A stretch of DNA of 64,000 bases from Escherichia coli (GTDB taxonomy: Bacteria; Pseudomonadota; Gammaproteobacteria; Enterobacterales; Enterobacteriaceae): assembly GCF_003334405.1 (NCBI RefSeq), contig NZ_QOWM01000009.1, one strand, 5' to 3'. This document shows, piece after piece, positions 22,575 through 24,809 of the stretch. Position numbers: made by a program. Numbering within the stretch: the stretch's first letter is position 1; each line of letters starts with the position of its first letter.

Positions 22575-24809
22575 TAAGTTCACCAATAAATAGAACGGGG
22601 CTAAAGGGTCCCGTTTTTTTCCGCCATCATTTCGGAAAAGTGTCCAGAAGGGGCAAGGGGACTCGGGGAGTATAATTTCACCATTCAAAAAGAATGGAAA
22701 GAATAATGCAAAACAGAAAATGGATTTTGACCTCGCTGGTAATGACTTTTTTCGGCATCCCCATACTGGCGCAATTTTTGGCGGTGGTTATTGCCATGCT
22801 GGGTGTCGGACTTGCCGGTATTATTGAAGTTTGTAATATCCTTATCACGCCAACAATTTACCTTCTGCTCAAAATTTTTATGCTGGCGCTGGGCGCATTA
22901 ATGCTATTTTTCTCGGGGCGAGTGGGGAACGTGCCTGAGTTTTGTTACGTTGGGTATGATGGCGTGGGCTTTGCGGTAATTCCCTGAATTAAAAAGTAGG
23001 TTAGATTTTTGACAAAGTGCGCTTTGTTCATGCCGGATGCGACGTGAACGTCTTATCTGGCCTACAAGACCATGCAAATTCAATATATTGCATAAACCAC
23101 GTAGGCCTGATAAGCGTAGCGCATCAGGCAGTTTTGTGTTTGTCATCAGTCTCAGGCCAGATTGAAATCTGACCTGATCACCTTACGTTAATTTACGACG
23201 CCAGCGATAACCTCTGCTGCGTATACTCCACCAGCCACTGACTCACACGAGATTGTTGATCCGCATTTAGCCACATGCCTTGTTTTGTGCGACGCCACAG
23301 GGCGTCGTCGGCGCGGCGGACCCATTCGTGATCCACCAGGTATTTCAGCTCCGCTTCGTAGAACTCATGACCGAAATCTTCCCCGAGATCGCTTACCGTT
23401 CCCGCATTGCCGAGCAGCAGCTCGCTGTTGCTGCCGTAAGTGCGAGCGTAATGACGCGCCAGCGATTCAGTCAGGAACGGATAGCGGCGGCGCAGGCGAG
23501 CGGCATAATCGTCGCGGTCGCCTTCAATGGCGCCACCCGGTAGCACACTCTCTTTCGTCCATGCCGGGCCAATACCCTGATAATACGGCGTTAGTTTTTC
23601 CAGCGCATGTTCCGCCAGTTTTCGGTAGGTGGTCAGCTTACCGCCGAATACCGACAGCAGCGGTGCTTTGCCATTTTCATCATGAATATCAAGGGTGTAA
23701 TCACGGGTAATAGCCTGCGGCGAGTCGGACTCATCATCACACAGCGGACGCACACCGGAGTAGGTCCAGACGATATCGTCACGGCTTAACTGCTTTTTAA
23801 AGTGCGTGTTATACACATTCAGCAGGTAATTGATTTCACTCTCTTCAATCTTCACCGCTTTCGGATCGCCTTTGTACTCGACATCGGTAGTGCCGATGAT
23901 GGAAAACTCGTCCATCCACGGGATCACGAACACAATACGTTTATCTTCGTTTTGCAGAATGTAGGCTTGCTTCTGGGTATGCACGCGCGGCACCACAATA
24001 TGGCTGCCTTTGATCAGGCGAATGCCATAAGGCGAAGGCAGATGCATCCCGTCGTCGAAGAACTGTTTCACCCACGGGCCGGTGGCGTTAACCAAGCCGC
24101 GCGCTTGCCAGCTATATTTTTTGCCGGTATCGATATCTTCCGCTTCCACAATCCACAGGCCGTTTTCGCGGCGAGCAGAGGTGGCGCGAGTCCGAGTAAG
24201 CACTTCGCCGCCTTTACGCACCACCATCTGGGCGTTGGCGAGTACCAGACGGGCGTCGTCTACCCAACAGTCAGAATATTCGAATCCGCGCTTAATTTCC
24301 GGTTTTAACACTGAATTTGCGCCAAAACGCAAACCAGTTGATCCCGGCAAGCTGGTGCGTTTACCCAGATGATCGTACATAAACAGACCAATGCGAATCA
24401 TCCACGCCGGGCGCAGATGCGGACGATGTGGCAGGCGAAAACGCATCGGGAAGGCGATATGCGGGGCCATTTTCAGCAGCACTTCACGTTCAGCCAGCGC
24501 CTCGCTGACCAGGCGGAATTCATAGTGCTCAAGGTAGCGCAGGCCACCGTGAATGAGTTTTGAACTGGCGGAAGAGGTCGCGCAAGCGAGATCCTGCGCC
24601 TCCAGCATCAGCACGGATAAACCGCGTCCAGCGGCGTCTGCCGCGATACCAGCACCATTGATGCCGCCCCCTATCACAATCAGATCTTTGGTTTCCATGC
24701 TGCCCTCATTCACTTTCGTTAAAGCTCATAAATGTTCGTTATCGAACATATTAGCAAAGAATCGCGCTTTAGGTAACATTGAAAAAACATTTTAGAGTGA
24801 TATGTATAA

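What the first reader, a model, noticed from the sequence alone, without database searches (positions are those of the whole stretch)
23032..23129. REP/BIME elements at four intergenic sites
Canonical REP palindromes occur after glgP/yzgL (23032-23129), after malQ (38739-38826), between tex and feoA (46933-46966 plus a partial copy) and between nudE and mrcA (61201-61232). They confirm the E. coli-type chromosomal background. They mark 3' UTRs where mRNA stabilisation or gyrase/IHF binding may occur.
Basis: partly seen in the sequence, partly recalled or inferred. Interest (0 to 1): 0.2.

Follow-up and report, generated by a model that had tools for sequence, protein, structure and literature searches.

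The report
Known E. coli REP/BIME repeats
The finding is correct but ordinary: these are already catalogued copies of E. coli's standard short palindromic intergenic repeats (REP/BIME), and the window holds six such elements, not four.

Summary
Confirmed and already known. The window is E. coli K-12-like chromosome, 99.98% identical to MG1655. All four sites match REP consensus sequences, where shuffled sequence gives zero matches.

- **Site 1 (23032-23129)** is an intact BIME-1: y REP, a 35-nt L linker with an IHF-like site, then the 29-nt z REP.
- **Site 4** is not a single REP. It is a full-length, decayed BIME-1 (61137-61234), 79/100 identical to site 1. Both of its GTAG boxes are lost.
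- **Site 3** is a y REP with a shortened L linker and a 9-nt stub of a second REP.
- **Site 2 (38739-38825)** is a pair made of a 37-nt REP and a y REP.
- **Two elements were missed:** a single REP after nfuA (40455-40490) and a 24-nt REP-like hairpin between rtcA and malT (30893-30916).

A published K-12 REP/BIME table lists six intervals with exactly these spacings and lengths. All six have zero gyrase cleavage sites.

Across 5,426 E. coli genomes:
- Only 1,884 keep the two-REP malQ/gntT allele. A sampled majority carries a 66-bp internal collapse to a 21-nt hairpin.
- The glpD BIME-1 sits at the edge of a variable glgP-glpD gene cassette.

Function (RNA 3'-end protection, translation damping, IHF binding) is inferred from the literature, not tested here.

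The parts
23032..23065 (+). Site 1, y-type REP of a BIME-1 (head GCCGGATG ... tail GGCCTAC).
   Evidence: 3 mismatches to the y consensus, 0 expected by chance. Stem pairs are kept through two-sided changes between strains.
23066..23100 (.). Site 1, 35-nt L linker with an internal palindrome (ATGCAA...TTGCAT). It carries an IHF-like site, ATTCAATATATTG, at 23078-23090 (+).
   Evidence: One mismatch to WATCAANNNNTTR; the window background is 0.12 such sites per 100 bp. The L linker of BIME-1 frequently carries an IHF site (PMC3333891).
23101..23129 (-). Site 1, 29-nt z REP (z1 by the lengths given in PMC8266576), inverted relative to the y REP.
   Evidence: 0 mismatches to GCCTGATGCGCTACGCTTATCAGGCCTAC. 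The whole unit equals 'BIMEs1 4077857-4077954' in the published table.
30893..30916 (+). 24-nt REP-like mini hairpin (GCCGGAT-CTGGCGCGTT-ATCCGGC) between the rtcA and malT stop codons. It has no GTAG box.
   Evidence: Found by the stem scan. The stem is invariant and the loop varies in three strains. It corresponds to table entry 4085718-4085741, with an exact offset. The fold is only weakly better than shuffles, z = -2.0.
38739..38775 (+). Site 2, 37-nt REP (z2 length), starting 12 nt after the malQ stop codon.
   Evidence: Table entry 4093564-4093650.
38776..38791 (.). Site 2, 16-nt linker between the two tail-to-tail REPs.
   Evidence: Read directly from the sequence. It forms the apical loop of the -65.5 kcal/mol hairpin.
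38792..38825 (-). Site 2, y REP. With its flanking T it starts 10 nt after the gntT stop codon on the - strand.
   Evidence: 1 mismatch to the y consensus. The interior of this REP pair is missing in the short allele.
40455..40490 (-). Single variant REP (GCCCGATGCGACGCTAAAGCGTCATTTCGGGCCTAC) starting 22 nt after the nfuA stop codon. GTAG is present.
   Evidence: Conserved in O157 and ST131. Table entry 4095280-4095315.
46933..46966 (+). Site 3, y REP downstream of tex (yhgF) and upstream of the tex terminator and the feoA promoter region.
   Evidence: 3 mismatches to the y consensus. Table entry 4101758-4101791. The core is present in all five strains aligned.
46967..46996 (.). Site 3, 21-nt shortened L-like linker (shares TGCAAATTC with site 1) plus the 9-nt stub GTAGGCCAG of a second REP. 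The stub ends 9 nt before the tex stop codon.
   Evidence: Alignment with site 1. This segment is 19 bp shorter or absent in three of five strains.
61137..61165 (+). Site 4, degenerate 29-nt z-type REP (GCCTGATGCACAATGTTTATCAGGCTTAT) starting 13 nt after the nudE stop codon. GTAG is lost.
61166..61200 (.). Site 4, 35-nt L linker with an IHF-like site at 61176-61188 (-), at the same position as in site 1.
61201..61234 (-). Site 4, y-type REP whose GTAG has decayed to GTTA.
   Evidence: 29/31 identical to y, E = 2e-8. The whole unit equals 'BIMEs1 4115962-4116059'. Its length is conserved in essentially all 5,426 genomes.

Best explanation
The window carries six copies or relics of the E. coli REP (palindromic unit) family.

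**Inventory**
- An intact BIME-1 (also called RIB or RIP) next to glpD.
- A decayed full-length BIME-1 between nudE and mrcA.
- A truncated BIME-1 after tex.
- One two-REP unit between malQ and gntT.
- Two solitary elements, one after nfuA and one between rtcA and malT.

**Shown here**
- Sequence membership in the family, and the hairpin potential.
- Extragenic position.
- High copy number per genome.
- Conservation or polymorphism of each site across strains.
- One-to-one correspondence with the published K-12 catalogue.

**Inferred from the literature**
- REPs are non-autonomous palindromes spread and processed by the REP-associated tyrosine transposase (TnpA-REP, also called RAYT). That enzyme needs the GTAG box and the stem mismatch. 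The copies at site 4 and at rtcA/malT have lost GTAG, so they are probably immobile relics.
- Once transcribed, the hairpins block 3'-5' exonucleases and define stable mRNA 3' ends for glpD, malPQ, gntT, tex, nfuA and nudE.
- Several copies begin within 15 nt of a stop codon: malQ 12, gntT 10, nudE 13, rtcA 13, malT 5. These may lower translation of the upstream gene by ribosome stalling.
- The L linkers of sites 1 and 4 probably bind IHF.
- As long DNA palindromes, the pairs are deletion-prone. This explains the 66-bp internal collapse of the malQ/gntT unit seen in many strains.
For: **Sequence and structure**
- Consensus matches where shuffles give none; weaker copies found by scans.
- Strong folds for the REP pairs, z = -5.8 to -9.3.
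- Site 4 aligns without gaps to site 1 at 79/100, with an IHF-like site at the same place.
- Across five strains, 98.5% of the proposed stem pairs at site 1 are kept. Three pairs changed on both sides; 2 of 500 shuffles reached the observed score.

**Family and catalogue**
- Queries containing the site 1 BIME hit a median of 17-21 places per genome.
- The six intervals in Sutormin et al. table DS3 have the same offsets (0, 7861, 15707, 17423, 23901, 38105 bp) and the same lengths (97, 23, 86, 35, 33, 97) as my six elements.
- Definitions of y, z1, z2, BIME-1, BIME-2 and the L linker, and the GTAG requirement, come from PMC3333891 and PMC8266576.

**Function, from the literature**
- Transcribed REPs resist exonucleases and sit at the 3' ends of Rho-terminated transcripts (PMC6061677).
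- The 15-nt rule for translation is cited in PMC12306157.

**Polymorphism**
- The short allele reads GCCGGATGCGA|TGCATCCGGC. The outer arms of both REPs are kept and the interior is lost.
Against: - No transcript, protein-binding or translation data for these particular loci were available.
- IHF binding is predicted only from a one-mismatch motif.
- Gyrase Topo-seq shows 0 cleavage sites at all six elements, so the gyrase role does not apply here.
- The rtcA/malT hairpin shares only the outer REP stem and folds weakly (z = -2.0). Its family membership rests mainly on the catalogue entry.
- Two-sided stem changes could come from gene conversion between REP copies rather than from selection on structure. 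Only five sequences were compared.
- The 37-nt REP of site 2 was typed by length only. I could not read a z2 consensus from the papers held.
Confidence: 0.93

Rival explanations
1. The palindromes are ordinary locus-specific terminator hairpins that only resemble REPs by chance.
For: They all lie at gene 3' ends. The rtcA/malT element is just a 7-bp stem with a 10-nt loop. Genomes lacking the glpD BIME have a plain GC-rich hairpin there instead.
Against: There are 29-35-nt matches to family consensus sequences with 0 expected by chance. The same sequences recur tens of times per genome. None of the REPs is called terminator-like by the scan, and separate hairpins with T runs lie beside sites 3 and 4. 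All six are listed in the published REP/BIME table.
Confidence: 0.03
2. The elements are currently mobile units (like REPINs), and the strain differences reflect recent gain or excision catalysed by TnpA-REP, not passive decay and slippage. On this view the short malQ/gntT allele would be an enzymatic excision product.
For: - Presence varies between strains at site 1, and the form of the element varies at sites 2 and 3.
- Five of the REPs keep the GTAG box that the enzyme needs.
- One possible left endpoint of the 66-bp deletion falls at a C|T dinucleotide, the cleavage preference reported in PMC3333891.
Against: - The two short alleles examined (L008 and L010) share the same junction, on different flanking backgrounds. 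It carries the K-12-type T variant of the left REP. This fits one deletion event spread by recombination.
- The endpoints share a 2-bp GC microhomology placed symmetrically in a long palindrome, as expected for replication slippage.
- Site 4 has lost GTAG yet is retained at constant length in essentially all 5,426 genomes.
- The alleles lacking the site 1 BIME differ in the whole neighbouring gene cassette, not just in the element.
Confidence: 0.07
3. The main role of these elements is on DNA, as topological or nucleoid anchors that bind gyrase, IHF or Pol I, rather than on RNA.
For: BIME-2 elements are enriched for gyrase cleavage genome-wide. BIME-1 L linkers often carry IHF sites. IHF-like motifs are present in sites 1 and 4.
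Against: There were 0 gyrase cleavage sites at all six elements in four drug conditions. BIME-1 elements as a class are depleted: 3 observed against 9 expected. No IHF data were available for these loci.
Confidence: 0.2

Closest known systems
BIME-1 (RIB / RIP elements) of E. coli
   Same: Sites 1 and 4 have a y REP and a 29-nt z REP in inverted orientation, separated by a 35-nt L linker that carries an IHF-like site. Each unit is 98 bp, against a modal 97 for the 78 BIME-1 in the published table. Both are listed there as BIME-1.
   Different: Site 4 has lost both GTAG boxes and is 21% diverged from site 1. Site 3 keeps only the y REP, two thirds of L and a 9-nt stub; the table lists it with the non-BIME-1 REPs.
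BIME-2 of E. coli (y + z2, short linker, often tandem, gyrase target)
   Same: Site 2 pairs a 37-nt REP (z2 length) with a y REP across a 16-nt linker. The table groups it under BIMEs2 with a length of 86, the common size for single units.
   Different: It is a single unit, not a tandem array. It shows no gyrase cleavage. The 37-nt REP has G/C where the z-type REP matched here has T/A, in the outer stem. The z2 consensus itself could not be checked from the texts held.
REPIN / RAYT systems (for example in Pseudomonas fluorescens) and TnpA-REP REPtrons
   Same: Inverted REP pairs with a GTAG box, thought to be mobilised by a domesticated IS200/IS605-like tyrosine transposase.
   Different: No RAYT gene lies in this window. 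Nothing here shows recent movement. Several copies lack the recognition box.
Intrinsic (Rho-independent) terminators
   Same: GC-rich hairpins at gene 3' ends.
   Different: REPs are a dispersed repeat family with a shared sequence and usually no U-tract. Separate hairpins with T runs lie beside sites 3 and 4.

Membership tests
REP (palindromic unit) family of E. coli | A 20-40-nt imperfect palindrome matching the y or z consensus sequences. | tested here: met
   0-3 mismatches for five REPs, with 0 matches in shuffles. The degenerate copies (61137-61165, 40455-40490) were identified by alignment.
REP (palindromic unit) family of E. coli | A conserved GTAG tetranucleotide at the foot of the palindrome. 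| tested here: met
   Read from the sequences. Present in both REPs of site 1, both of site 2, the y REP of site 3 and the nfuA REP. Not met for both REPs of site 4 (GTTA, ATAA) or for the rtcA/malT hairpin (GTTTAG). Those three are best called relics.
REP (palindromic unit) family of E. coli | Extragenic location. | tested here: met
   All six lie between ORFs and between annotated MG1655 genes.
REP (palindromic unit) family of E. coli | High copy number within one genome. | tested here: met
   Queries containing the site 1 BIME hit a median of 21 and 17 places per genome, and 132,309 places in 5,426 genomes. The literature gives about 600 copies in K-12.
REP (palindromic unit) family of E. 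coli | A cognate TnpA-REP (RAYT) gene in the same genome. | not testable with these tools
   The gene is not in the 64-kb window. K-12 is reported to carry one (PMC3333891).
BIME-1 / RIB / RIP | One y and one z1 REP in inverse orientation, separated by the long conserved L linker, as a single copy. | tested here: met
   Site 1 meets this exactly. Site 4 is collinear with it at 79/100. Both are listed as BIMEs1. The z1 = 29 nt assignment follows PMC8266576.
BIME-1 / RIB / RIP | IHF binding to the L linker. | not testable with these tools
   Only a one-mismatch match to WATCAANNNNTTR is available, at 23078-23090 and 61176-61188. No ChIP table was held.
BIME-2 | y plus z2 REPs with a short linker, typically in tandem copies. 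| tested here: inconclusive
   Site 2 has a 37-nt REP and a y REP with a 16-nt linker, and the table groups it with BIMEs2. It is a single unit, and I could not check the 37-nt REP against a written z2 consensus.
BIME-2 | Preferential gyrase cleavage. | tested here: not met
   The published Topo-seq table shows 0 cleavage sites at 4093564-4093650 in four conditions. Only a subset of BIME-2 elements is cleaved genome-wide.

The most novel reading that the evidence does not exclude
The 66-bp internal collapse of the malQ/gntT REP pair to a 21-nt hairpin is the allele found in a sampled majority of E. coli genomes. The glpD BIME-1 stays fixed at the edge of a swappable glgP-glpD gene cassette. 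The novel reading is that both reflect REP-specific, TnpA-REP- or cruciform-directed DNA processing that recurs at defined points, rather than one-off slippage and ordinary recombination. If so, these two loci would be natural reporters of REP processing in the wild.
Probability: 0.1. Interest if true: 0.35.

Novelty: already known. Interest (0 to 1): 0.1.

Why it matters
It matters little as a discovery. REP/BIME elements have been known since 1984, and these six copies are already in the K-12 catalogue.

The practical value is in annotation.
- It identifies which of them carry an IHF-type linker.
- It flags five genes whose stop codons lie within 15 nt of a REP: malQ, gntT, nudE, rtcA and malT. 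These are candidates for REP-dependent damping of translation.
- The strain comparison gives two clean natural examples of REP-associated polymorphism that could serve as test loci.

Tried and rejected
- **Rfam scan of the window.** It found only RyhB. Nothing at any REP site reached a family threshold, so this says nothing about them.
- **A gapped z-type pattern from memory.** It found nothing because the pattern was wrong.
- **My recalled z1/z2 naming was reversed.** I corrected it from PMC8266576, which gives y as 35 nt, z1 as 29 nt and z2 as 37 nt.
- **Idea: the glpD BIME sits at the deletion that created yzgL.** Rejected. The junction is at 22920-22927, 105 bp to the left, between GAGTG(T/G)GG microhomologies. 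The BIME is also present in strains that keep the intact gene cluster.
- **Idea: strain 98232 has an inversion breakpoint at the BIME.** Rejected. It carries a fimbrial operon allele at the same glgP-glpD locus, and 228 genomes carry this junction sequence.
- **Idea: a fuller REP exists at rtcA/malT in other strains.** Rejected. The length is constant in 5,024 genomes.
- **Papers not held.** Liang 2015 and 2016 and Boccard & Prentki 1993 could not be read.
- **Supplements not held or uninformative.** No IHF ChIP or term-seq tables were held. The RepRanger supplements have no entries for these genes.
- **Terminator scan.** It did not call the GGCGC-CGAA-GCGCC hairpin with its T run at 61268-61286. 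I read that hairpin directly from the sequence.

Full report
**Background**

The window is E. coli K-12-type chromosome. Positions 16811-64000 align to MG1655 (NC_000913.3, reverse strand, about 3.523-3.570 Mb) at 99.977% identity, with 10 substitutions and one inserted base. Rfam finds only RyhB, at 5724-5788; nothing at any REP site reached a family threshold.

**Check of the observation**

- The y-type REP consensus matches 23032-23065 (+), 38792-38825 (-) and 46933-46966 (+) with 3, 1 and 3 mismatches. None of 100 shuffles gave any match.
- The 29-nt z-type consensus matches 23101-23129 (-) perfectly.
- The fourth site matches y at 29 of 31 positions, E = 2e-8.
- The first REP of site 2 (38739-38775) is a 37-nt copy with both conserved ends.
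- As single strands, the two-REP units fold at -42 to -66 kcal/mol, with z-scores of -5.8 to -9.3 against shuffles.
- A query containing site 1 hits a median of 21 places per genome, and 132,309 places in 5,426 genomes. This is a dispersed repeat family, not a set of local hairpins.

**Anatomy**

The nomenclature comes from two papers. PMC3333891 defines BIME-1 as z1 + y with a long L linker that often carries an IHF site, and BIME-2 as z2 + y with a short linker. PMC8266576 gives the REP lengths as y 35 nt, z1 29 nt and z2 37 nt.

- **Site 1** is an intact BIME-1: y REP 23032-23065, a 35-nt L linker, and the z1 REP 23101-23129. The linker carries ATTCAATATATTG at 23078-23090, one mismatch from the IHF consensus WATCAANNNNTTR. 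The window background is 0.12 such sites per 100 bp.
- **Site 4** was under-called. Its reverse complement (61137-61234) aligns without gaps to site 1 at 79 of 100 positions: y REP, a 35-nt linker with an IHF-like site at the same position (61176-61188), then a 29-nt z REP. Other strains keep more consensus-like versions of the left REP and the linker. Both GTAG boxes have decayed, to GTTA and ATAA.
- **Site 3** is a y REP followed by a 21-nt linker that shares TGCAAATTC with L, and then only GTAGGCCAG of a second REP. That stub ends 9 nt before the tex stop codon.
- **Site 2** is a 37-nt REP, a 16-nt linker and a y REP.

- A stem scan and short-word BLAST found a single variant REP 22 nt downstream of nfuA (40455-40490, - strand, GTAG present). 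It is conserved in O157 and ST131.
- They also found a 24-nt hairpin between the rtcA and malT stop codons (30893-30916). It has the REP outer stem but no GTAG. Its stem is invariant and its loop varies in three strains.

**Independent confirmation**

Supplementary table DS3 of Sutormin et al. 2019 (PMC6379681) lists K-12 REP/BIME intervals in W3110 coordinates. Six entries have exactly the offsets and lengths of my six elements.

| Table entry | Class in table | Window element |
|---|---|---|
| 4077857-4077954 | BIMEs1 | 23032-23129 (site 1) |
| 4085718-4085741 | BIMEs2 | 30893-30916 (rtcA/malT) |
| 4093564-4093650 | BIMEs2 | 38739-38825 (site 2) |
| 4095280-4095315 | BIMEs2 | 40455-40490 (nfuA) |
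| 4101758-4101791 | BIMEs2 | 46933-46966 (site 3) |
| 4115962-4116059 | BIMEs1 | 61137-61234 (site 4) |

- The offsets from the first entry are 0, 7861, 15707, 17423, 23901 and 38105 bp. The lengths are 97, 23, 86, 35, 33 and 97.
- No other listed interval falls inside the window. The inventory is therefore complete, and the elements are already catalogued.
- The same table records zero gyrase cleavage sites at all six in four conditions. BIME-1 elements as a class are depleted for cleavage: 3 observed against 9 expected.

**Variation among 5,426 complete E. coli genomes**

*Site 1 and the glgP-glpD interval.* This interval is a cassette hotspot.

- About 1,256 genomes have the K-12 arrangement, yzgL plus the BIME-1.
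- About 870 genomes match the sequence just left of the BIME at 90-95% identity. The three examined (BL21, O157:H7, U1) carry a three-gene PstS-like cluster followed by the same BIME-1.
- 228 genomes carry the junction sequence seen in strain 98232, where a fimbrial operon is followed by the same BIME-1.
- The two other genomes examined, KCJ3K291 (four genes) and an ST131 strain (three genes), have a different cluster ending in a plain GC-rich hairpin, with no BIME.
- yzgL itself is the remnant of a 2,852-bp deletion between GAGTG(T/G)GG microhomologies. The junction is 105 bp to the left of the BIME.
- Across five strains, 98.5% of the proposed stem pairs at site 1 are kept. Three pairs changed on both sides: G.T to T-A, A-T to G-C, and T-A to A-T. 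Two of 500 shuffles reached the observed score. With five sequences, and with possible gene conversion between REP copies, this is supportive only.

*Site 2.*

- Only 1,884 genomes (35%) keep the two-REP allele.
- In sampled rows, most of the others carry an allele 66 bp shorter that reads GCCGGATGCGA|TGCATCCGGC. It keeps the outer arms of both REPs and has lost the interior.
- The junction can be placed in a 2-bp GC microhomology.
- It carries the K-12-type T of the left REP even on a flank that resembles CFT073. This fits a deletion inside the long palindrome that was later spread by recombination.

*Sites 3 and 4.*

- At site 3 the REP core is present in all five strains aligned. The tail, linker and stub are missing (19 bp shorter) in three of them.
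- Site 4 has near-constant length in essentially all genomes, at 91-100% identity.

**Likely function (inferred, not shown)**

- Transcribed REPs form exonuclease-resistant hairpins that define stable 3' ends, notably for Rho-terminated transcripts (PMC6061677).
- By position, the elements here lie in the 3' untranslated regions of glpD, malQ, gntT, tex, nfuA and nudE.
- Sites 3 and 4 are followed by separate hairpins with T runs, read from the sequence (partly).
- REPs that begin within 15 nt of a stop codon are reported to reduce translation (Liang et al. 2015, as cited in PMC12306157). That geometry holds for malQ (12 nt), gntT (10), nudE (13), rtcA (13) and malT (5). It does not hold for glpD, whose REP begins more than 60 nt from the stop codon, yzgL (44) or nfuA (22).
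- IHF binding is predicted for sites 1 and 4 only.
- A gyrase role is not supported at any of the six.

**Verdict**

The inventory and the typing needed correction, and the functional remark should be narrowed. The elements are known members of a known family, so interest is low. The strain-level polymorphisms are tidy examples of a documented phenomenon: reference 39 of PMC3333891 is cited there for variation in tandem BIME number at a locus between strains.

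Noticed in passing
window 22706-22987 (yzgL), junction at 22920-22927: yzgL is a chimeric remnant. Relative to BL21 and O157:H7, K-12-type genomes have lost 2,852 bp of a PstS-like three-gene cluster between two GAGTG(T/G)GG microhomologies. This fuses the start of the first gene to the end of the third.
   Followed up: yes
window 22578-23192 (glgP-glpD interval); loci L002, L003/L021, L005, L025: The interval is a gene-cassette hotspot with at least four alleles in E. coli: the yzgL remnant, a 3-gene PstS-like cluster, a fimbrial operon, and a different 3-4-gene cluster. The first three end in the same BIME-1. The last ends in a plain hairpin.
   Followed up: partly
window 38739-38825; loci L008, L010: Only 1,884 of 5,426 genomes keep the two-REP malQ/gntT element. 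In sampled rows most of the others carry a 66-bp internal deletion that leaves the hairpin GCCGGATGCGATGCATCCGGC. The two short alleles examined have the same junction on different flanking backgrounds.
   Followed up: partly
window 26256: There is an extra C relative to MG1655, inside glpR. MG1655 glpR is annotated as a pseudogene, and the window has an intact 252-aa ORF at 26106-26864. The source is therefore K-12-like but not MG1655 itself.
   Followed up: partly
window 38732: There is an A here, 6 nt before the malQ REP, where MG1655 has G. No genome in the 5,426-genome collection matched this stretch at 100% (best 99.7% and 99.4%), so the base looks private to the source strain.
   Followed up: no
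window 5724-5788: The RyhB small RNA gene: Rfam RF00057, 83 bits, full length, + strand.
   Followed up: no
window 23153-23178: A separate 11-bp-stem hairpin (TCAGGCCAGAT-TGAA-ATCTGACCTGA) lies between the glpD stop codon and the BIME-1. It is not followed by a T run. Other strains have T in place of the C, which makes the stem perfect.
   Followed up: no
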